This document shows positions 23,430-31,804 of a stretch of 32,000 bases of DNA, piece after piece; within the stretch, counting starts at the first letter, position 1, and every line of letters begins with the position of its first letter. The notes under the pieces were generated by a model that was given only the letters and a program-made list of their open reading frames with translations, did no database searches and was not told the DNA's origin. This DNA comes from an archaeon (lineage in GTDB: Archaea; Asgardarchaeota; Thorarchaeia; Thorarchaeales; Thorarchaeaceae), in assembly GCA_024275415.1 (NCBI GenBank), contig JAJRZD010000127.1, positions 1 to 32,000 on the forward strand, given 5' to 3'. Both the position numbers and the translations under genes were made by a program.

Positions 23430-25571
23430 ATGAATGATGTGAAAGACCTGATACCAAAAACTGAGAACCCAGTGATCCTTGACTTGTTCTCAAATGTGCT
23501 TCGGTCAATGGAATTGATACTAGCAGGGAAGTCATCTGACGAAACCGGGCCATTTAACGAGCCAATCGAATTGCTTTCCTACGCACTCGCAAAAAAAGCT
23601 TCATATGATCTTGAAAAATTCACGACAGCGACCTCAACGGACAAGAGGCTTTCCCTCATATTTAGGAACGCTCTTGATGGTGGCTCTGCCGGGAAGATTG
23701 TAGAAAGCTTGATCCTCGGGACTTATGGGTTCGTTCTCGGCTCCTACAATGATGAGGATTTCAGGTATCTCTATCGCTACACTCTGAAGTTGCAAAGGGG
23801 ATCTCGTAAATTTCAGGATTGGATAAAGAGGGCTCTTTGCTTTGTTGTGGCAATCCAGCACTCGTATCCACAGGAGGTTCTTCATCAAATCAGGGAGTGG
23901 ATCAGGTTCCTAGGGGCACCACTCTATCCTCCATCTGATTTCCAAGACCACTGTGCCACATTTGGCATTGACATCGAACCCATACTTTCTGATGACGAAT
24001 ATCGCTCGGTGCTGTCGCTGCGTTCCCGTCCTGAATACCTGGAGGAGGCAATCCTAAACCGTCCCTTCGATGAAGTGTACAGATCCCTGAAATCGTGGAC
24101 GCCTGATGGACTCCTACGCGATGCTTACAAGATTTCTGAGAAGCGGATGTACGAGAAGTTACAAGACCATATCAACGATGATATGAGCATCGCACAAGTA
24201 CTCGAGGTCTCAGAGCAGTTCTTCAGACAGAAAGGGTTCCAGGTCGATGACTCTACCGCGATTCCTGTGAAGCTTCAAAGGCTCTCCCGACCGCCTCCGC
24301 CAGATGTGATGGATCCTGCAATCTTTGAGCGGATACCACAGAAATTACGTGTCAACCTACTTCCTGCCGTCACATATTCCACCTCGATAAAGGAAGTCGA
24401 GATTATCTTTCTCGGCGGGCCTAGAATTGGACGAAGTGGTATCCTAATCAAGACCTCAACTGGAGGTGTTCTCCTTGACTATGGTATGTCAGTAGCTAAT
24501 CAAATGATTCCGGAATGGGTTCCCGAACTTGAAACCATCGATACGATCTTGGTGTCTCACAGCCACTTGGATCACGTTGGCGGTCTGCCAATTATCTATG
24601 ACACCTTTGAAGGCAAGTGGTGTAGCACAGGCATCACTGGGGCAGTCACAATGAAACTTCTTGAAGATGCCCTGAAAATCGGAACTCCCCTCCCTCCGAG
24701 AAAGACAGACACGCTGGATAGGGTGTCACGCTTTACGAAAGACAATGTAGAGGTGGTTTCTCGAAGCCATGTGACCCTCGAAGTCGGCTCATCCAGCGAG
24801 TTGGCTCCAGGGATACTCGTGACTCCGGTTGACGCATGTCACATCCCCGGCAGTGTGGCATATCTCCTAGACATTGAAGGGCTCAAGATACTGTACACCG
24901 GCGACTTCAACCTCGACCAGTCCGTCCTTTTCCCAGGTGCTTCATTCCCCACTGACCCCGATGTGTTGATCTTCGATGGCACCTATTGGAGTAGGGAGGA
25001 CTTTGATAGGGCTAAGGTCTCTCAACAACTGATGAATATTATCGAGAACTATGGTCCGGTCATCATCCCAACCTTTGCAGTGGGACGCTCTCAAGAAATC
25101 CTGACGATACTTGACAAGCTCGGCATCACGAACACCAGAAACGTGATGGTAGCGGGGATGGCAGAGGCAGTGACCAAGATGACAGGCTTCAAAGGAAAAT
25201 GGCATGGACTGAAGAAGAACAAGGTCAATCTGGAAGAGGAGGATGTTCTTGTGGCTGGTGGAGGCATGATGGACGGAGGTTTCGCAAAACACCATTTCGA
25301 GCAGCACCGTGACAATAGTAAGGCAGCGGTCGTCCTCTGTGGATACCTTGCTCCACGAACTGCAGGATGGAATCTTATTCATGGTTATGAACCACATCAA
25401 TGCCATGTGGAATATGCCCGACTAAGCGCTCATTCGTCGGCATCGAGGCTTGGTGACTATATAGGATCCTGTAAAGGAAAGCGGATCATGGTTCATACTC
25501 CAGTTGCTACAACACCGAAGAATCTGACAATCCCACGATTAGAGGAACGGATAAGGCTCAAGGTGCCCTAG
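23430..25571 (+). CDS. Beta-CASP metallo-beta-lactamase nuclease (CPSF/RNase J-like) with a ~320-aa unrecognised N-terminal domain
   Basis: LLDYG, SHSHLDH, CHIPGS, YTGDF, DGTY, GRSQE, SAHS, VHT. Confidence 0.85.
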   Translation: MNDVKDLIPKTENPVILDLFSNVLRSMELILAGKSSDETGPFNEPIELLSYALAKKASYDLEKFTTATSTDKRLSLIFRNALDGGSAGKIVESLILGTYGFVLGSYNDEDFRYLYRYTLKLQRGSRKFQDWIKRALCFVVAIQHSYPQEVLHQIREWIRFLGAPLYPPSDFQDHCATFGIDIEPILSDDEYRSVLSLRSRPEYLEEAILNRPFDEVYRSLKSWTPDGLLRDAYKISEKRMYEKLQDHINDDMSIAQVLEVSEQFFRQKGFQVDDSTAIPVKLQRLSRPPPPDVMDPAIFERIPQKLRVNLLPAVTYSTSIKEVEIIFLGGPRIGRSGILIKTSTGGVLLDYGMSVANQMIPEWVPELETIDTILVSHSHLDHVGGLPIIYDTFEGKWCSTGITGAVTMKLLEDALKIGTPLPPRKTDTLDRVSRFTKDNVEVVSRSHVTLEVGSSSELAPGILVTPVDACHIPGSVAYLLDIEGLKILYTGDFNLDQSVLFPGASFPTDPDVLIFDGTYWSREDFDRAKVSQQLMNIIENYGPVIIPTFAVGRSQEILTILDKLGITNTRNVMVAGMAEAVTKMTGFKGKWHGLKKNKVNLEEEDVLVAGGGMMDGGFAKHHFEQHRDNSKAAVVLCGYLAPRTAGWNLIHGYEPHQCHVEYARLSAHSSASRLGDYIGSCKGKRIMVHTPVATTPKNLTIPRLEERIRLKVP

Positions 25572-27538
25572 GCTACTATTTCAAGTACACCATCCAAGAC
25601 GAGCATTGTAGCAACGAATTTCATGGCTGCAAAGCTTAGCTTCAGCTTCTTCACTATATCCCCCAGTGGAGTTTTTCCATCACAAAGATTCACGAATTTG
25701 ATGACGATTGGGCCGTAAGGTTTCACATGTTTCTCAGGATCTGGCTCTGATATCTTCTTCAGAATGACACTAGTATCCAAATCGACTTGGAAAGTGATCC
25801 AATCAAACTTCTTCATTATCTGGAGACAGCCGAGAACCTTTTCACGGGGGAGGTCAAGAGAACGCACCAATCCTCCCACAGTCAGTGTGCCATCAATAGC
25901 AGTCTTTACTTCAACAAGAGACCGTCCAACGTCCCTATTGGCAAATGGGAGTCCCCGTCCTGCTTCGCGTGCTCGAACCATATAGTCCAAGCTGATAGGA
26001 ACCAGTGGGATTTCACCGAGTACGTTGAAGACGGATGTTTCAAAGACGGTCATATCCCCATTCCAATCAGCCCAAATTTCATGGAACATATCTTCAATCT
26101 CAACTAGAAGGCCAGCCATCTTCTGACGGTATAATTCTTCTTCATTGTCATTTGTCACGATGAGAGCAAGTACGAAATGCTTTGATTTTTCCACCATGAC
26201 AAGATTCCCTTCATGCTCGATGGTTTCCAAGGCATCAGTGGCGTCTGTGGTTCCTTCTGCGGATGGGTCGATTCCACCAAAGGAATCAAGAGCAGAAATC
26301 AGGGATGCTACCGAGTTCACATCAATCATGTTGTCTGAGTAGTCTAGGTGATAGACAACATTGAACATACCATTTTGTTGGATCAGGAGTATCAAGCTTA
26401 TGACTTTGGTTGGCAATTGGATTGGCTCGACTTCAGAAGCTACTGTGCCATCAGAAGAGGACTCGATGGCGGTATCACTGTCGCCTACTTCTGAAGCTAG
26501 CGGGATGCCACTGGGTTCGTGTGAAGAGGGTGCTTCTCGTCCTGTGTCTGACCCGTCCTCCTGATAGGGAACTGTTTCATAACCACTCTGATCATGAGGA
26601 GTCCTAGCAGAATCCATCCCCGCCTTGTCAACATCCTCGGTCTTTCGGCGAACGGTAATCATCTCACTGATTGGTCGATCGGGGAGTTGAACCCCTACGG
26701 TCTTTGCAGCCACTTCCAACATGAAGCGGATGAACTCCTCTCGTCGGGATTTGTTCGTTGCGACCATGGGAAATGTAGGAGCTCCTAGAAGTCGTTTGAT
26801 CTTCTCAGCTCTCATTGATTCAGGGAGATCCTGCTTATTTGCCACAATGAACAAGGGGACTGCCGGAGCCTCTTTCTTGATATTCCTGAGAAGCGTCTTG
26901 GTCTGCATCACATTTCGAAAAGAGCTATCAGTGATGAGGAATATCACATCGGTTCCCTGGAAATAGAAGCTCCAGAGGTCTTGAAAGACTGCCTGTCCTG
27001 CAAAGTCCCAGATTGTAACCAAAAAAGTGCCGAACTGAATTGTTTCAGACGAGTCCACTGCAACATTGATTGTAGGCACATACCCACCGGGAGCTGGCTC
27101 CCTCCCAAAAAGGAGGCGAAGCAGAGTACTCTTCCCGACACCACCACTTCCAACGAAGGAAATCTTGAAACGGGTGAAAATGAGCTCACCAAGGATGTCC
27201 TCAATGTTGTCCTTGATATAGCTCATCGAGTTGCCTCTCAGCGCGGTGGCGACACGTGCAGAGCCTTCACGAATCTTGTATTGAATCACACGATCCTCAT
27301 CCCGTCCATCAGTGACGAATAGAAGAAGCAGGTCATCACTGACTGGAGCGTGAAATACCTTATGAACCTCGCTCACGAAGACAGGTGTGTCAGGGGACAG
27401 ACCTTCTGTGGTATGTAAGTCGTGGTATCCCCGTAGGAATTCTTGGATGTCCTCCTGCCCGAACTCGATCTTCCAGAACCTTGACCTCACCACAATGTCC
27501 CCAGTTTCAGTTTCTATCAGTATGACATTATGGATCAT
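25568..27538 (-). CDS. Multidomain Arf-like small GTPase: longin-like / GTPase / acidic linker / longin-like / tandem winged helix
   Basis: G1 GSGGVGKST, G2 YVPT, G3 WDFAGQ, Arf-like WSFYF, G4 NKQD. The longin and wHTH calls rest on sequence pattern only. Confidence 0.85.
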   Translation of the reverse strand: MIHNVILIETETGDIVVRSRFWKIEFGQEDIQEFLRGYHDLHTTEGLSPDTPVFVSEVHKVFHAPVSDDLLLLFVTDGRDEDRVIQYKIREGSARVATALRGNSMSYIKDNIEDILGELIFTRFKISFVGSGGVGKSTLLRLLFGREPAPGGYVPTINVAVDSSETIQFGTFLVTIWDFAGQAVFQDLWSFYFQGTDVIFLITDSSFRNVMQTKTLLRNIKKEAPAVPLFIVANKQDLPESMRAEKIKRLLGAPTFPMVATNKSRREEFIRFMLEVAAKTVGVQLPDRPISEMITVRRKTEDVDKAGMDSARTPHDQSGYETVPYQEDGSDTGREAPSSHEPSGIPLASEVGDSDTAIESSSDGTVASEVEPIQLPTKVISLILLIQQNGMFNVVYHLDYSDNMIDVNSVASLISALDSFGGIDPSAEGTTDATDALETIEHEGNLVMVEKSKHFVLALIVTNDNEEELYRQKMAGLLVEIEDMFHEIWADWNGDMTVFETSVFNVLGEIPLVPISLDYMVRAREAGRGLPFANRDVGRSLVEVKTAIDGTLTVGGLVRSLDLPREKVLGCLQIMKKFDWITFQVDLDTSVILKKISEPDPEKHVKPYGPIVIKFVNLCDGKTPLGDIVKKLKLSFAAMKFVATMLVLDGVLEIVA

Positions 27539-27655
27539 TCATTGTTCACCTATCTTCTTGGATTCGATTGCGCTCAAAACGTATATTCAACTGTTCTAGT
27601 AAAACTATCCTAATAATCCACAAGATAGACTATGAAGCTTTGGTCGATGTACCTT

Positions 27656-29341
27656 TCACTCCAGGATCACAATTCCTTTTGAATACAGGTCTGAAATCAC
27701 AGAAATAAGCACACTCTGCTGAATTCCAACTTCCTCACTAATCTCCATAACCGTGTGTTTCCCGTCCATCATTGCCGTAATCTTATCTATATGTGAATAG
27801 AGTTTACGAAGGGATTCATTGACCTCGCCCACCAGCCTCGGCGTATCAGAAGGGTCTAGGTTCAGCTTCAGACCGATGCAGCCCATTGCCTTGAGAAAGT
27901 GAATTGCTCCCAATGTCATATTGGGACCACTGCCAGATGATAGACGTTGGATCTCAATCGAGCCGTCAAGACTCCCCCAGACAGCCTGTAGGAAATCCCG
28001 AACCTCCCTCGATTCAAAGCGATTCCAATCGGGCTCGTGTATCCGCACAGGACACATCTTGCCAGGAATCTCTTCTGGCGGGAGTGTTGCAAGGATCTTG
28101 AGCGTGAACGGAGGTGAAGAATATGGATCCTCTGAACTCTCGACGAACTCAGGAGATTCGTCTTTCCAGAGATCCGGAAGGAACGAGAATTGTCGGCGGA
28201 GTGACTCTACATCATCGACGACCCCAGTGACCAGCGTGAAAATCAGGTCATCGACCTCGATAAGGGCATATACCAAATCCTCGACTTGCACTACTGAGGT
28301 CTTGTCAAACTCTGCACTGCCCATCTTAAAAGAGGTCACTGCTGCAACTATGTTGGGAGCTCTACGATGTGCCTCAGCCTTCGGGACGTAATAATACGTG
28401 AACACAGGGTTACCCGTTGATTTTTTCACAACAAAAAAGGCCTGATGTCCCGTAGGTCCTGCTGGGATAATCGCACTTTCATCTGTTGGTTGTGTGTCAA
28501 TTGAGGCGTCCATGGGCCATCGTTCCAATGCCAGATCAGGATGCATATCAGTCAACCCCATTATCGCCAAGACTGATACCAACAGGTAAGAAGCGTCCTT
28601 GGAAACTGAATCACAGAGTTCGATTTGGAGATCCGTTTCATACCTCCTTGCGTGTTCCAGTTCGTCGTCAGAACCAGGAGCAATAAGGATCGGGACTGAA
28701 ATCTTCGACCTGATACCTTCCACAATCCCCTCAATGACTGACCTGTCAGGTAGAGGCCTCCCAAGAACAAGTATAACTCCTGCGGGATTGTCTTCTACAG
28801 CAATATCTGGGTCAGACACAACTGCTGAGAATGTGTACTTGGCAGCCCTGATATTGTAGGGTCCGATGGCAATATGACCGTGAACCTTCATGTGCTTCTC
28901 AATATTGCTTAGAGCACCACCGGTGATGTTCTCAAAGGACGGCTCTTTATCCGAGATGAAGACCAGATAGAGACCTCTCCTCAATAGGTCGCCAGCCGTA
29001 CTAGAAAAGGTCTTTCTGATCTCACGCATTCCATGTTCCTTTGCAAGATGAGTGAGGCGCGAAGCCAGCTCCGCCACCTGACGTTTTTCTTCTTCAGAGA
29101 ACAAAGAAGTACTGGATACGACAACAAGGAGAGCCTTACCAGCGACCAAGTGGAGACAGACTCCTCGACCATCTTCTAGTTCGAAGACATGGCCGTTCTC
29201 AAATGCCAGCTCCTGAAGTAGCCCAAAATACGACTCGATAATAGGTTGTATAGGGAAACTCTCTGTGTCATTATCCACAAACGAGACCGATGCCCATGGC
29301 TTAGCACCTACTAAGTCGTATAGTATCGATCTCTCTATCAA
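27656..29341 (-). CDS. Paralogue of the downstream GTPase gene with a degenerate (pseudo-)GTPase domain
   Basis: Hand alignment with 25568..27538 is colinear at both termini, but the G1, G3 and G4 motifs are absent. TTG start. Confidence 0.75.
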   Translation of the reverse strand: MIERSILYDLVGAKPWASVSFVDNDTESFPIQPIIESYFGLLQELAFENGHVFELEDGRGVCLHLVAGKALLVVVSSTSLFSEEEKRQVAELASRLTHLAKEHGMREIRKTFSSTAGDLLRRGLYLVFISDKEPSFENITGGALSNIEKHMKVHGHIAIGPYNIRAAKYTFSAVVSDPDIAVEDNPAGVILVLGRPLPDRSVIEGIVEGIRSKISVPILIAPGSDDELEHARRYETDLQIELCDSVSKDASYLLVSVLAIMGLTDMHPDLALERWPMDASIDTQPTDESAIIPAGPTGHQAFFVVKKSTGNPVFTYYYVPKAEAHRRAPNIVAAVTSFKMGSAEFDKTSVVQVEDLVYALIEVDDLIFTLVTGVVDDVESLRRQFSFLPDLWKDESPEFVESSEDPYSSPPFTLKILATLPPEEIPGKMCPVRIHEPDWNRFESREVRDFLQAVWGSLDGSIEIQRLSSGSGPNMTLGAIHFLKAMGCIGLKLNLDPSDTPRLVGEVNESLRKLYSHIDKITAMMDGKHTVMEISEEVGIQQSVLISVISDLYSKGIVILE

Positions 29342-29391: not shown

Positions 29392-30639
29392 TCAACTTTC
29401 TCTTACCTGCTTCCGCAGGAATTCTTCAAAAGTGATATGGCCTCGCATAAAGCGCTGGTAGTTGCTCTGAATCCATTGTACGTCGTATGGCATCTCGTGA
29501 CATCCTTCACCCGACGCTATCTCCGGCAGATCCGAGATTGCCTCACCGACCGAGATAGGATCCATCCTGTCGTCGTCTTCCCTTTGCGAAGCCGGATCAT
29601 TCCTTCGACGGTCTTTGATAGCACTGAACATTGGTCGGGGCGGTTCGAGATAGTCACTAGTCCTGCTAGCAATGATGAATATCCGTCTTCTACGCTGAGG
29701 AACACCGTACTCTTCGGCTCCCAACTGGAACCACTGAGGCAAATATCCAATCTCTCTGAGAGAGGATAGAATCCTATCTAAAGCTGCGCCCTTGTTTCGA
29801 ATTCGGAGACCTGTCACGTTCTCAATCAACACAAACTCAGGACACAGAGATTCCACCATCCTGAACATAGAGAGTATGAGATTGTTCCGGGGATCCTCTT
29901 TGTCCCATTTTCCAGCCATCGAAAAACCCTGACAAGGAGGACCTCCAGCAAGAAGTTGCAATGTCCGTCCTCCAAGATGCGACTCAACCTGTGCAATGAA
30001 TTCCTCTATTTCATGGGCTTTGCTGAAGTCCACATCAATAACCGTTGTCCCCTCATGGTTTGCAGTATAGGTCGCTCGCATGTGAGGCTCTTTCTCTCCA
30101 GCAATGATGACCTCATGCCCTGACTCTCGAAGCCCGCATGACAATCCACCGGCTCCTGAGAACACATCGACACATAACCCGGGTTTTACAAGTCCACCTA
30201 TAGCACGTGCAAGCAATGGTGGGACTGCATTGCCAATCTGTTTGTACATGGACGAGTTACTTCCTAGGAACCTGTAGTCGTCAGGAAATGACTGCAACCT
30301 GGCTGCCTCCCTGAACGAGATTAGACGGTCCTGAGCTGGGTGGATGAACGTGCCATTGCCGGGGCGATTGAAGTAAGTATTAATCGTATAGCTCGGAAGA
30401 TCAGGCCGGAGTCGTCCATAATAGGTCGTGCGTCCGCCCGTACTACGAATCCGCATGACGCGAGCTGACCTCTGTGCAACAGACAAGGGGATGTCCTGCC
30501 AGTTCCCTCCGGGACGAATTGAGCGCACCATTTGGACATCAAGCTCACTAAGATTAGCCGAAACATGATTGTAGAGCACTGTAGACTCGTTTCTTGTCTT
30601 CTGCGACTTGTTAGTGAGCATCATCATCAGATACCACAC
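29392..30639 (-). CDS. Circularly permuted DNA (cytosine-5) methyltransferase
   Basis: The order is TRD, motif IX (REAARLQSFPD), X (QIGNAVPP), I (FSGAGG), IV (GPPCQGFS), VI (ENV), VIII (QRRRRIF). The real start may be an ATG at 30621-30627. Confidence 0.92.
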   Translation of the reverse strand: MWYLMMMLTNKSQKTRNESTVLYNHVSANLSELDVQMVRSIRPGGNWQDIPLSVAQRSARVMRIRSTGGRTTYYGRLRPDLPSYTINTYFNRPGNGTFIHPAQDRLISFREAARLQSFPDDYRFLGSNSSMYKQIGNAVPPLLARAIGGLVKPGLCVDVFSGAGGLSCGLRESGHEVIIAGEKEPHMRATYTANHEGTTVIDVDFSKAHEIEEFIAQVESHLGGRTLQLLAGGPPCQGFSMAGKWDKEDPRNNLILSMFRMVESLCPEFVLIENVTGLRIRNKGAALDRILSSLREIGYLPQWFQLGAEEYGVPQRRRRIFIIASRTSDYLEPPRPMFSAIKDRRRNDPASQREDDDRMDPISVGEAISDLPEIASGEGCHEMPYDVQWIQSNYQRFMRGHITFEEFLRKQVRES

Positions 30640-30719: not shown

Positions 30720-31187
30720 TCACAATGAACGCCTAAAGCGATTCATGTCGGGAATGTCAAGAAGGGTATAACCACTCCCATCCCAATGTAAGATACGATA
30801 CTCGGTGCTATGCCCGAGCATTGAGCCGATTATGAATGCTGCAGAAACAGGACAGGCAAGCACAACGGCAAGTGAATGACCTCCAACGCTCTTCCCTACC
30901 TTATGGATCAGGACAGCAGCTCCCTCAGACCATTGTGTGATTTCTGACGGTTTAAGCTGTTTCGGGACTCCAATCTCGCCCACGATACAGTATCCTGCAA
31001 GAGTGACATCTCGCTTTGTGTCATGACTGAAATTGACCACGATCGCAGGGGGACGACTGTCCAAGTCTGAATAGTTGAAAGGAACTAAAACCCCCGTTTT
31101 CAACCGTTTGGCAAGTCCACTGAATCTAGTCTTGAATGTATATATGCTATTCATGATAGAAAGAATGATAGTAATAGCATCAGGCAT
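30720..31187 (-). CDS. Stand-alone SAVED-like (CARF-related) small protein A
   Basis: AIVVNFS..D, then LAVVLACPVSAAFIIGSMLG...RILHWD..GY, matching the C-terminal SAVED pattern (hlflaaP.slAf.lG...v.ly.y....Y). Confidence 0.6.
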   Translation of the reverse strand: MPDAITIILSIMNSIYTFKTRFSGLAKRLKTGVLVPFNYSDLDSRPPAIVVNFSHDTKRDVTLAGYCIVGEIGVPKQLKPSEITQWSEGAAVLIHKVGKSVGGHSLAVVLACPVSAAFIIGSMLGHSTEYRILHWDGSGYTLLDIPDMNRFRRSL

Positions 31188-31339: not shown

Positions 31340-31804
31340 ATGTCAAATGATCTTGAACAAGAAAAAGAGAAGATAAAGATAGGACATTTGGAAGTAACGG
31401 GTCTCTCATCCCTTGTTACCTCACTTTCCGATGAAAAGGAATCATCAACTCTGTTGGACACCAATGCGGAGGTTGTAATAGGTGTGAGCCTGTCCAGACC
31501 AGTGCTTCAAGATCTCGAAAGAGAAGGATACAGCGTAATTGCTGACATTGGACCTCCTCGTCAGATAGAAATATCAGAAATGACTGGGCTTGCAGAGGAC
31601 GTAGCAATCATAATAGACAAGCTGAGAAGGATGGTAAAATGCAAAAGCATTACCTTGGTGTTATCATGTCCCACTGCTGTTGCCTTCATGATTGGCAGCT
31701 TGCTAGGACATCAGTTCACTTATCGCCTGTTGCATTGGGACAATGGATATGTACGTGTGCCAGACTATGGCATCAAACGTTACAGGAAAGAAATCAAAGG
31801 ATAG
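31340..31804 (+). CDS. Stand-alone SAVED-like small protein B, paralogue of A
   Basis: VVIGVSLSR..LQD, ITLVLSCPTAVAFMIGSLLG...RLLHWDNGY; GGAGA RBS-like element upstream of the ATG. Confidence 0.6.
   Translation: MSNDLEQEKEKIKIGHLEVTGLSSLVTSLSDEKESSTLLDTNAEVVIGVSLSRPVLQDLEREGYSVIADIGPPRQIEISEMTGLAEDVAIIIDKLRRMVKCKSITLVLSCPTAVAFMIGSLLGHQFTYRLLHWDNGYVRVPDYGIKRYRKEIKG

What the first reader, a model, noticed from the sequence alone, without database searches (positions are those of the whole stretch)
25568..29341. Tandem paralogue pair: an active Arf-like GTPase and a catalytically dead pseudo-GTPase twin (candidate heterodimeric signalling module)
Seen in sequence: the 561-aa protein (27656..29341) aligns without gaps to the first 130 residues of the 656-aa GTPase, sharing M1 I2, I6 L7, F21, I31 Q32, L41, L71 L72, V75, E91, R95, M105, I108, G117 E/D118 L119 and F128. 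Exactly where the GTPase has the P-loop GSGGVGKST, the twin has SDKEPSFEN. WDFAGQ aligns to AKYTFS and VPLFIVANKQD aligns to VPILIAPGSDD. The C-termini also match (IDG/LDG, LG....K, LD.S, K.Y, DGK...I), so this is a whole-gene duplication in which one copy lost nucleotide binding. Established: eukaryotic longin-based regulators are often heterodimers of paralogues (Mon1-Ccz1, HPS1-HPS4, Inturned-Fuzzy, NPRL2-NPRL3), and Rag GTPases are obligate heterodimers. Inference: the two proteins form an active/pseudo-GTPase heterodimer in which the dead copy is a scaffold, GEF or GAP. I do not know of a described archaeal system with this layout.
Basis: partly seen in the sequence, partly recalled or inferred. 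Interest (0 to 1): 0.85.

Follow-up and report, generated by a model that had tools for sequence, protein, structure and literature searches.

The report
GTPase and dead-GTPase twin genes
Two neighbouring genes of a Thorarchaeota (Asgard) genome encode full-length sister proteins, one a highly conserved Arf/Rag-like GTPase and the other a copy that has lost its nucleotide pocket. Both carry an NPRL2-like tail, which makes them a plausible but unproven archaeal counterpart of the paired GTPase regulators of eukaryotes.

Summary
Window 25568..27538(-) encodes a 656-aa protein ("A") with an intact small-GTPase domain. Window 27656..29341(-) encodes a 561-aa protein ("B") with no family match. The two families are full-length paralogues (hhalign E 6e-19, 553 columns). 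Their shared architecture is longin, G domain, longin, then two winged helices.

All 31 aligned A sequences keep G1, G3 and G4; none of 39 aligned B sequences has a P-loop. B's middle domain still models as a G-like fold and matches A's G domain on its own (E 6e-6).

B lies directly upstream of A (93-188 bp) in 58 genomes of 16 genera of one Thorarchaeota family. It was found in no other family among 301 genomes sampled from the phylum.

- The C-terminal half of both proteins is NPRL2-like (Foldseek E 1e-7 to human NPRL2).
- G-like domain plus second longin matches whole Rag GTPases.
- A has its own conserved promoter-like element.
- A C5 DNA methyltransferase lies directly upstream of B in 54 genomes.
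- A occurs without B in a few genomes.

The heterodimer is inferred only. I rate this a new variant of a known kind, because Asgard longin-GTPase fusions and NPRL2-like proteins are already published. First readers of this scan noted the same stretch of this genome twice more, once in another window; no look-alike turned up in another genome.

The parts
25568..27538 (-). Gene A: 656-aa multidomain GTPase (longin, G domain, acidic disordered linker, longin, two winged helices).
   Evidence: ORF. Pfam Arf/Roc/Ras at aa 122-253. 243 homologues at 64-75% identity, all Thorarchaeota-type. AF2 secondary-structure order.
27179..27538 (-). A, first longin domain (aa 1-120).
   Evidence: Strand/helix order is beta-beta-alpha-beta-beta-beta-alpha-alpha in the model. 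hhalign to B's first longin gives E 2e-8. Foldseek matches sigma-adaptin and COPI zeta longins.
26684..27178 (-). A, G domain (aa 121-285). It carries the P-loop GSGGVGKS (130-137), switch I T156, WDFAGQ (177-182) and NKQD (234-237).
   Evidence: All motifs are invariant in 31 of 31 members, and mean identity to the window protein is 92%. Best PDB sequence match is Arf1, E 2e-15.
26417..26653 (-). A, acidic variable linker (aa 296-374), predicted disordered.
   Evidence: pLDDT is about 26-30. Identity across the family is 25% and net charge about -9.
25571..26407 (-). A, NPRL2-like half: second longin (aa 378-490) plus two winged helices (aa 491-656).
   Evidence: The top PDB Foldseek hits of the A model are NPRL3, NPRL2 and Npr chains of GATOR1/SEAC, E 5e-6 to 1e-4. 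hhalign to B's C-terminal half gives E 5e-13. There is a weak Pfam HTH_47 hit.
27539..27655 (-). 117-bp spacer between B and A. It holds a conserved BRE/TATA-like element AAAGCTTCATAG (27630-27641) and a GGTGA Shine-Dalgarno-like site 7 nt before A's ATG.
   Evidence: Alignment of 15 genera. The element stays next to A where a foreign ORF separates the two genes. Sequence read.
27656..29341 (-). Gene B: 561-aa pseudo-GTPase paralogue (longin, P-loop-less G-like domain, longin, two winged helices).
   Evidence: ORF. No Pfam or NCBIfam family. 96 homologues at 35-55% identity and only 38 clusters among 1.84 billion representatives. AF2 mean pLDDT is 85.7.
28982..29341 (-). B, first longin domain (aa 1-120).
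28547..28981 (-). B, degenerate G-like domain (aa 121-265). SDKEPSFEN replaces the P-loop and PGSD replaces NKxD. Conserved patches are GP (160-161) and PGSD..LE.AR..E......LCDSVS (222-247).
27659..28453 (-). B, NPRL2-like half: second longin (aa 297-425, the most conserved part of B) plus two winged helices (aa 426-561).
   Evidence: Foldseek against Swiss-Prot models: B 294-560 aligns to human NPRL2 2-325 at E 1.3e-7, with mouse, cow, fly, yeast and S. pombe Npr2 also hit. An ESM Atlas cluster with 100% NPR2 Pfam content also matches. Profile against PDB sequences gives NPRL2 at E 0.03. Per-domain conservation.
29392..30639 (-). C5 DNA methyltransferase directly upstream of B (50-bp gap). 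It is a conserved neighbour and not shown to belong to the module.
   Evidence: Pfam DNA_methylase E 3e-60. It lies directly upstream of B on the same strand in 54 genomes of 15 genera (with coordinates).

Best explanation
SHOWN. Two co-oriented neighbouring genes encode full-length paralogues with the architecture longin (LD1), G domain, linker, longin (LD2), winged helix, winged helix. The LD2 plus winged-helix half has the build of eukaryotic NPRL2/NPRL3. The G domain plus LD2 part matches whole Rag/Gtr GTPases by fold.

Protein A has every nucleotide-binding and catalytic motif, including the Gln of DxxGQ. Its G domain is 92% identical across the family, so it is a working GTP switch under very strong constraint. 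Protein B keeps the fold, but the P-loop is missing in every member examined and the G3 and G4 motifs in 34 of 39. It has stayed an intact, constrained ORF across at least 16 genera. It is a pseudo-GTPase, not a pseudogene. B is restricted to one Thorarchaeota family and most likely arose there by tandem duplication of A.

INFERRED. B pairs with A domain by domain, through the longin and winged-helix parts. Rag CRDs, NPRL2-NPRL3 and the tri-longin GEF subunits pair in this way. The result would be a pseudo-symmetric heterodimer with a single live nucleotide pocket. The longin domains would serve as the platform that sets or reads A's nucleotide state. The neutral-to-acidic winged helices would be protein-binding modules rather than DNA readers. 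The input and the output of the switch are unknown.
For: - Paralogy: hhalign E 6e-19 over 553 columns. Per domain: E 2e-8, 6e-6 and 9e-14, with controls at 0.027 or higher. Gapless N-terminal alignment z 5.6.
- Active versus dead: G1/G3/G4 in 31 of 31 A sequences. In B the counts are 0 of 39 for G1 and 5 of 39 each for loose matches to G3 and G4.
- Rag-like: B 120-405 aligns to RagA 4-311 and Gtr1 2-301. Rag, Gtr and LokiRagO chains are hit at E 4e-6 to 1e-3.
- NPRL2-like.
- Linkage: B is 93-188 bp upstream of A on the same strand in 58 genomes of 16 genera. Six genomes of the family lack both genes.
- Constraint on B: LD2 is 55% identical and 17 columns are invariant.
- Winged helices have net charge -0.6 to -3.2 and both proteins are about -30 overall.
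- Precedent in Asgard: a Rag-like operon pair predicted to dimerise through roadblock domains (PMC10933270).
- The same genome holds a second tandem pair of stand-alone NPRL2-like paralogues.
Against: - No physical or predicted interaction was obtained.
- A is present without B in a single-contig genome of the same family (G242, with an MFS transporter gene upstream). The same holds in the sister family (G112, with a CUB-PPC-caspase gene upstream). A therefore does not need B everywhere.
- A has its own conserved promoter-like element, and in four genomes a 1.9-3.6 kb insert separates the genes. Co-transcription is not required.
- B evolves much faster than A (33% against 92% identity in the middle domain), unlike the two Rag partners.
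- The whole about 12-kb block is syntenic in the family, so adjacency could partly reflect inertia.
Confidence: 0.6

Rival explanations
1. The two proteins work independently. B is a free-standing longin/winged-helix regulator (GAP, GEF or scaffold). It acts in trans on other small GTPases, or has another role. It sits next to A only because it arose there by tandem duplication.
For: The genome gives 32 matches to A at E 1e-3 or better, most of them over the G domain only. A has its own promoter-like element and tolerates separation from B. A exists without B in G242 and G112. Stand-alone NPRL2-like proteins exist in the same genome.
Against: Adjacency and orientation are kept in 58 genomes across 16 genera, although B has diverged to 35% identity. 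Both genes are missing together in six genomes, including two of four in one genus.
Confidence: 0.2
2. B and A belong to a DNA-methylation-linked module: N6-MTase, C5-MTase, B, A, possibly with the convergent beta-CASP nuclease. The winged helices would bind DNA. The GTPase would gate an R-M-like, epigenetic or defence activity, taking the place of the missing restriction enzyme.
For: The C5 MTase lies directly upstream of B on the same strand, mostly 53-112 bp away, in 54 genomes of 15 genera. The block N6-MTase, C5-MTase, B, A, then convergent beta-CASP recurs in distant relatives. The MTase resembles the C5 half of fused type IIS MTases, and no nuclease follows it.
Against: - Three genomes of one genus, and several others, keep B-A without that MTase.
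- A and B have no PADLOC match.
- A's 92% conserved G domain, the near-universal presence in the family and the fixed chromosomal place next to NadA and NAD kinase are unlike defence islands.
- The winged helices are neutral to acidic.
- Neither protein shows a nuclease motif.
Confidence: 0.1
3. B's middle domain is a receiver-like (CheY-fold) or other flavodoxin-like domain, not a decayed G domain. B would then be an NPRL2-like protein fused to a two-component-type domain rather than a pseudo-GTPase.
Against: - Domain-only hhalign to A's G domain gives E 6e-6 against controls of 0.05 or higher.
- The modelled beta2-beta3 hairpin and six-strand order are those of GTPases.
- GTPases align over 128-142 residues, receivers over 116-123.
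- No conserved phospho-acceptor Asp or Lys pattern is present.
- No Response_reg hit appears among the 25 most frequent families in the 39 members.
Confidence: 0.05

Closest known systems
Rag/Gtr GTPase heterodimers (RagA/B-RagC/D, Gtr1-Gtr2), and the Asgard Rag-like longin-GTPase-roadblock proteins including LokiRagO (PDB 8yl2; PMC10933270)
   Same: A G domain is followed by a longin/roadblock domain. The proteins come as paralogous pairs encoded side by side; one MK-D1 operon pair is predicted to dimerise. Foldseek aligns B 120-405 to whole RagA and Gtr1.
   Different: - One partner here has no nucleotide pocket, whereas both Rags bind GTP.
- There is an extra N-terminal longin and two C-terminal winged helices.
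- By sequence the G domain is closer to Arf (66 bits) than to Gtr1_RagA (22 bits, at the cut-off).
- The second longin has longin topology (beta-beta-alpha-beta-beta-beta-alpha), not roadblock topology.
NPRL2-NPRL3 (Npr2-Npr3), the paired longin subunits of the GATOR1/SEACIT GAP for Rag GTPases
   Same: An N-terminal longin is followed by winged-helix domains, and the two subunits are paralogues that work as a pair. NPRL2 is the best Swiss-Prot structural hit of B's C-terminal half (E 1.3e-7). NPRL2/NPRL3 chains are the top PDB hits of both models.
   Different: - Here this module is fused behind a longin-G-domain unit.
- Pfam NPR2 and NPR3 do not match.
- I looked by eye for an Arg-finger equivalent of NPRL2 Arg78 (which I recall as lying between beta4 and beta5) in the longin domains and saw none; this was not tested.
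- No DEPDC5 homologue was looked for.
- TM-scores are low (0.18-0.25), as expected for multi-domain models.
Tri-longin-domain Rab GEF heterodimers (Mon1-Ccz1, Fuzzy-Inturned, HPS1-HPS4)
   Same: Paralogous subunits with a longin, middle alpha/beta domain, longin order that act only as heterodimers. Foldseek E 5e-6 to 1e-4 over B 4-400. There are weak Pfam Fuz_longin_1 hits in 13 of 39 B members.
   Different: The middle domain is a G or G-derived domain, not a longin. Winged helices are added. The GTPase is part of the same chain rather than a separate substrate.
Eukaryotic pseudo-GTPases of the nucleotide-free class (for example CENP-M, p190RhoGAP pG domains, the AAGAB pseudoGTPase domain; from my own knowledge, and PMC10211241 as a review)
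   Same: The G fold is retained without G1-G5 motifs and is used as an interaction module.
   Different: This one is archaeal, it is the tandem paralogue of its presumed partner, and it is embedded between two longin domains. My paper search for 'pseudoGTPase' with 'archaea' returned only two general reviews, and I did not open either of them.
Bacterial MglA-MglB and actinobacterial conservons (CvnA-D: kinase, roadblock, DUF742 winged helix, Ras-like GTPase; from my own knowledge)
   Same: The same parts list: a small GTPase, a roadblock/longin domain and a winged helix, encoded together. There are weak DUF742 hits in 2 of 39 B members. MglB and MglC are structural hits of both longin domains.
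   Different: Those systems use separate small proteins. Here the parts are fused into two large paralogous chains, one with a dead G domain.

Membership tests
Ras-superfamily small GTPase (protein A) | G1 GxxxxGK[ST], G2 Thr, G3 DxxG(Q) and G4 [NT]KxD motifs; Pfam/TIGRFAM score above the curated cut-off. | tested here: met
   GSGGVGKS, T156, WDFAGQ and NKQD are invariant in 31 of 31 members. Pfam Arf scores 66.2 bits (cut-off 22.3) and TIGR00231 scores 63.7 bits (cut-off 42.5).
Arf family proper (protein A) | An N-terminal amphipathic helix (often myristoylated at Gly2) directly preceding the G domain. | tested here: not met
   The G domain starts at about residue 122, behind a 120-aa longin domain. 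The Arf-type W..GQ......W spacing (W177 to W189) is present, and Arf1 is the best sequence hit. A is therefore Arf-like, not a canonical Arf.
Rag/Gtr family (A and B) | A G domain followed by a C-terminal roadblock dimerisation domain. | tested here: inconclusive
   Foldseek aligns B 120-405 to whole RagA and Gtr1. The A model also hits Rag chains. Pfam Gtr1_RagA scores 22.0 bits, exactly at the cut-off of 22. The following domain has longin rather than roadblock strand order.
Rag/Gtr family (A and B) | A heterodimer of two nucleotide-binding paralogues. | tested here: not met
   B lacks a P-loop in 39 of 39 members. Dimerisation itself could not be established.
NPRL2/NPRL3 (GATOR1) family (C-terminal halves of A and B) | An N-terminal longin domain followed by C-terminal winged-helix domains (shared fold). 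| tested here: met
   B 294-560 aligns to NPRL2 2-325 at E 1.3e-7, with orthologues from five other species also hit. NPRL2, NPRL3 and Npr chains are the top PDB hits of both models. An Atlas NPR2 cluster also matches.
NPRL2/NPRL3 (GATOR1) family (C-terminal halves of A and B) | Sequence membership (Pfam NPR2 PF06218 or NPR3 PF03666). | tested here: not met
   No NPR2 or NPR3 hit at E 1 or better in A or B. Neither family is among the 25 most frequent in the 39 B members, where there is one HTH_NPRL3 hit at E 0.078. The B profile against PDB sequences gives NPRL2 at E 0.03.
NPRL2/NPRL3 (GATOR1) family (C-terminal halves of A and B) | A catalytic arginine finger in the longin domain, and assembly with DEPDC5. 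| not tested
   No coordinates were available to me for mapping. By eye, the beta4-beta5 loops of the longin domains carry no Arg in the window proteins (reading). DEPDC5 was not searched for.
Pseudo-GTPase, nucleotide-free class (protein B) | A G-domain fold and descent from a G domain. | tested here: met
Pseudo-GTPase, nucleotide-free class (protein B) | Loss of the nucleotide-binding motifs. | tested here: met
   0 of 39 members have GxxxxGK[ST]. NKxD is replaced by the conserved PGSD.
Pseudo-GTPase, nucleotide-free class (protein B) | No nucleotide binding or hydrolysis. | not testable with these tools
   This needs mant-GTP/GDP binding and hydrolysis assays on purified B.
Tri-longin-domain Rab GEF subunits | Three consecutive longin domains. 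| tested here: not met
   The middle domain is G-like (flavodoxin-like), not a longin. The overall order and the paired-paralogue logic are nevertheless similar.

The most novel reading that the evidence does not exclude
The pair may be a surviving archaeal intermediate that links Rag-type GTPases to the NPRL2/NPRL3 subunits of GATOR1. An Arf/Rag-like G domain is covalently joined to an NPRL2-type longin plus winged-helix module. Its tandem duplicate is caught part-way to becoming a pure regulator, with the G domain decayed but still folded. If so, NPRL-type paired longin regulators, or tri-longin GEFs, could have originated from GTPase paralogues through loss or conversion of the G domain. 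A Rag/GATOR1-like switch would then predate eukaryotes as a single two-chain machine.
Probability: 0.15. Interest if true: 0.85.

Novelty: new variant of a known kind. Interest (0 to 1): 0.6.

Why it matters
Rag GTPases, GATOR1 (NPRL2-NPRL3), folliculin and the tri-longin GEFs form the core of eukaryotic nutrient signalling and organelle identity. How these paired longin regulators arose is unresolved.

This locus combines a Rag/Arf-like G domain and an NPRL2-like module in one chain. Next to it lies a naturally "dead" paralogue that is conserved in one Thorarchaeota family. That gives a simple two-protein system for three questions:
- Do such paralogues heterodimerise?
- Does a pseudo-GTPase partner set the nucleotide cycle of the live one?
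- What do archaeal longin and winged-helix modules bind?

It would also be the first described prokaryotic pseudo-GTPase paired with its own paralogue, as far as my literature searches show.

The conserved position behind two orphan DNA methyltransferases is unexplained and could point to an unexpected output.

Tried and rejected
1. Complex prediction. I submitted the C-terminal halves (A 375-656 with B 290-561, both as alignments). The verdict was "no answer", with a score of 0.01 against a mark of 0.32, and the controls were not run. This is neither support nor evidence against binding. The N-terminal halves and the hetero-versus-homodimer comparison could not be run because the cap is one job.
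2. Expression. No sequencing run, RNA or DNA, was listed for the stretch, so nothing can be said about expression or co-transcription.
3. A shared 8-mer. CTTCATAG lies upstream of both genes in the window (5 hits against 1.2 expected). It is conserved across genera only upstream of A, not upstream of B. I rejected it as a shared operator.
4. A possible diverged B in the sister family. The 500-aa ORF upstream of the A orthologue in G112 is a CUB-PPC-caspase protein with no similarity to B.
5. Defence-system membership. A and B have no PADLOC hit.
6. Pfam or NCBIfam family for B. There is none. Across 39 members only weak winged-helix, Fuz_longin_1 and DUF742 hits appear.
7. B as a decaying pseudogene. 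Rejected: intact ORFs of about 560 aa occur in more than 60 genomes, with 17 invariant and 43 nearly invariant columns.
8. B's middle domain as a receiver domain. I consider this unlikely (see rivals).
9. Winged helices as DNA readers. They are neutral to acidic, and their recognition helices carry a net charge of only about 0 to +2. This is weak evidence only.
I could not map conserved patches or candidate Arg fingers onto the structures.

Full report
WHAT IS THERE. The window's minus strand carries two co-oriented ORFs. A is 25568..27538, 656 aa, with an ATG start. B is 27656..29341, 561 aa, with a TTG start. They are separated by 117 bp. The public gene call for B starts 21 codons later (540 aa). 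Most homologues align from residue 1, and the N-terminal consensus MIxxAxLxDLxGxK is conserved, so the TTG start is the better one. The named homologues of both proteins are nearly all labelled Thorarchaeota/Promethearchaeota, that is Asgard archaea.

CHECK OF THE OBSERVATION. It has 21 identities in 130 positions against 8.5 expected, and a BLOSUM62 score of +13 against -122 +/- 24 for shuffles. Every other offset from -20 to +20 scores -88 or lower. The P-loop GSGGVGKST of A lies exactly opposite SDKEPSFEN of B.

BLASTP alone sees only the C-terminal similarity (24% identity, E 0.014). Profiles settle the matter. An alignment of 31 A homologues against 39 B homologues gives hhalign probability 99.1% and E 6e-19, with 553 aligned columns from end to end.

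I then cut the alignments into domains:
- LD1 against LD1: E 2e-8.
- G against the middle domain of B: E 6e-6, probability 85%, 96 columns.
- Winged-helix part: E 9e-14.
- C-terminal half as a whole: E 5e-13.
- The second longin alone is weak: E 0.002.
- Six mismatched-domain controls give E 0.027 to 0.74.
The two genes are therefore whole-length paralogues, and B's middle domain is independently related to A's G domain.

ACTIVE AND DEAD.
- A scores above the curated cut-offs for Arf (66 bits), Roc, Ras and TIGR00231. Its best solved relatives by sequence are Arf1 proteins (E 2e-15).
- All 31 aligned A sequences have GxxxxGK[ST], DxxG[QH] and [NT]KxD. The G domain is 92% identical on average to the window protein, with long invariant runs.
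- None of the 39 B sequences has a P-loop. The NKxD position reads PGSD. The middle domain is only 33% identical across the family.
- B is not decaying. It has 17 invariant and 43 nearly invariant columns. Its second longin domain is its best-conserved part (55%). Intact frames of about 560 aa occur in more than 60 genomes.

STRUCTURE. AlphaFold2 with the family alignment gives B a mean pLDDT of 85.7.
- The tail is two winged helices, with weak HTH_47, ArsR and TrmB hits.
- The A model is poorer (pLDDT 69, shallow alignment) but shows the same order, plus an acidic disordered linker at 296-374.

WHAT IT RESEMBLES.
- Foldseek against the PDB puts GATOR1/SEAC NPRL2, NPRL3 and Npr chains at or near the top for both models. 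Rag/Gtr heterodimers follow for both, and for the B model also the Asgard LokiRagO and the tri-longin GEFs Fuzzy-Inturned, Mon1-Ccz1 and BLOC-3. E-values run from 1e-6 to 1e-3.
- The Swiss-Prot model library gives ranges. B 294-560 aligns to human NPRL2 2-325 (E 1.3e-7), and also to mouse, cow, fly, yeast and S. pombe Npr2. B 120-405 aligns to whole RagA or Gtr1. B 4-390 aligns to Fuzzy and Mon1.
- An ESM Atlas cluster with 100% Pfam NPR2 content also appears.
- The B profile hits NPRL2 weakly in the PDB sequence set (E 0.03).
- TM-scores are low (0.15-0.3). That is expected for multi-domain models with uncertain domain packing (pTM 0.52), so I treat these as architecture-level matches.
- Pfam NPR2 and NPR3 do not match.

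In short, each chain overlays two eukaryotic architectures that share its second longin: Rag (G plus longin/roadblock) and NPRL2 (longin plus winged helices).

DISTRIBUTION AND LINKAGE.
- phmmer against 1.84 billion representative proteins finds only 38 clusters for B.
- Among 301 genomes sampled across the phylum, full-length B occurs only in the window's own family (70 of 76). Other families give only weak partial matches to stand-alone longin-WH proteins or to A itself.
- A orthologues are in 69 or so of the same 76 genomes, and in the one sampled genome of the sister family (E 1e-220).
- Putting the coordinates together, B ends 93-188 bp upstream of A on the same strand in 58 genomes of 16 genera.
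- Four genomes of one genus carry a 1.9-3.6 kb insert between them. In G149 this is a 528-aa ORF on the other strand with no Pfam match.
- Six genomes cannot be judged because of contig ends.
- Six genomes of the family lack both genes (completeness 62-93%), including two of four in one genus.
- A without B is seen in G242, which is a single contig with an MFS transporter gene upstream. It is also seen in G290 and G296, though G296 (and perhaps G290) may simply be cut by a contig end. In the sister-family genome G112 the upstream gene is a CUB-PPC-caspase protein unrelated to B.

B thus looks like a family-specific tandem duplicate of A that is usually, but not always, retained.

TRANSCRIPTION UNIT. 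An alignment of the B-A spacer from 15 genera shows a conserved AAAG(C/G)TTCATAG element just after B's stop codon; in one genus it reads ...CTTTATAT. It lies about 75-90 nt before A's start codon, and a GGAG/GGTG site lies 6-10 nt before the start. Where the foreign ORF is inserted, the element stays with A. I read it as a BRE/TATA-like promoter for A (inference). The MTase-B spacer has only a conserved GGAG-like site. The pair is therefore a conserved neighbourhood, and not necessarily one transcript.

WIDER CONTEXT. A C5 DNA methyltransferase lies directly upstream of B, on the same strand and mostly 53-112 bp away, in 54 genomes of 15 genera. In two distant relatives the block is N6-MTase, C5-MTase, B, A, then convergent beta-CASP nuclease, NAD-kinase-wHTH and NadA, as in the window. 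Here two SAVED-like genes are inserted between the MTases. One genus keeps B-A without this MTase. A and B have no PADLOC match. I cannot tell whether this linkage is functional or family-level synteny, so I list it as a rival explanation and as a passing observation.

MECHANISM. Shown: paralogy, the live and dead status of the motifs, the folds, the linkage and the restricted distribution.

Inferred: A and B form a pseudo-symmetric heterodimer through their equivalent longin and winged-helix domains, with one live nucleotide pocket. Four points make this plausible:
- Rag, NPRL2-NPRL3 and tri-longin proteins all work this way.
- Tran et al. predict a Rag-like operon pair in MK-D1 to dimerise (PMC10933270).
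- B's best-conserved part is its second longin.
- The genome holds a second tandem pair of stand-alone NPRL2-like paralogues, 280 and 283 aa and 38% identical. These are full-length homologues of A's C-terminal half, at E 2e-16 and 2e-12, and one of them (280 aa) also of B's, at E 3e-9.

The winged helices are neutral to acidic and both proteins carry a net charge of about -30. This favours protein binding over DNA binding, but only weakly.

Three points count against an obligate dimer: A occurs without B, the two evolve at very unequal rates, and A has its own promoter-like element.

LITERATURE.
- Liu et al. (bioRxiv 10.1101/2020.10.19.343400) describe an NPRL2-like family (a longin plus an NPRL2-specific C-terminal domain) in most Thor MAGs, and Rag-family GTPases fused to longins.
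- Tran et al. (PMC10933270) describe longin-GTPase-roadblock architectures and a predicted Rag-like heterodimer.
- The Traffic 2025 paper (PMC12290439) links Asgard longins to the GAP longins of GATOR1, FLCN and C9orf72.
- I found no paper describing a P-loop-less paralogue paired with its GTPase in archaea, nor a G domain fused to the NPRL2-like module. Only open-access text was searched.

VERDICT. I rate it a new variant of a known kind, with interest 0.6.

Noticed in passing
window 29392-30639 (-), and beyond 31846 (-): A C5 DNA methyltransferase lies directly upstream of gene B on the same strand in 54 genomes of 15 genera. In distant relatives an N6-MTase (Eco57I/TaqI_C type) precedes it. 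The C5 enzyme matches the C-terminal half of a fused type II MTase profile. No restriction nuclease follows; the longin pair does.
   Followed up: partly
window 27630-27641 (-): A conserved BRE/TATA-like element AAAG(C/G)TTCATAG lies just after B's stop codon, 75-90 nt before A's start, in 15 genera. It stays with A where an insert separates the genes.
   Followed up: yes
L010 2826-4412 (+) (G149:C60): In four genomes of one genus, 1.9-3.6 kb is inserted between B and A. In the one I read (G149) the insert is a 528-aa ORF on the opposite strand with no Pfam match. Its nature (a mobile element?) is unknown.
   Followed up: partly
L009 1342-2184 (+) and 2247-3098 (+) (own genome, contig C9): A second tandem pair of paralogues (280 and 283 aa, 38% identical, 62 nt apart). 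Each consists only of the NPRL2-like longin plus two winged helices. hhalign to A's C-terminal half gives E 2e-16 and 2e-12. This is a possible NPRL2/NPRL3-like pair without G domains.
   Followed up: partly
own genome: C127:40562-41455, C107:17784-18665, C28:43435-44235: Three further longin-plus-G-domain paralogues of A (31-41% identity to aa 1-300), of about 285-325 aa. In sister genomes the counterpart of the first lies in frames of 500-670 aa, and here a TAG stop follows it.
   Followed up: no
window 30720-31187 (-) and 31340-31804 (+): Two divergent genes of about 155 aa with SAVED/CARF-like matches (PADLOC SAVED4, E 9e-6 and 5e-11). They sit between the two methyltransferase genes. They are absent from that position in the two relatives inspected.
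   Followed up: partly
window 23430-25571 (+): A 713-aa MBL/beta-CASP nuclease with a long N-terminal extension converges on gene A and overlaps its stop by 4 nt. The same convergent arrangement, followed by NAD-kinase-wHTH and NadA, recurs in distant relatives.
   Followed up: partly
window 26417-26653 (-): A's linker of about 80 aa is acidic (net charge about -9), rich in Ser, Thr, Pro and Glu, predicted disordered and only 25% conserved. B has a much shorter linker (aa 266-296).
   Followed up: no
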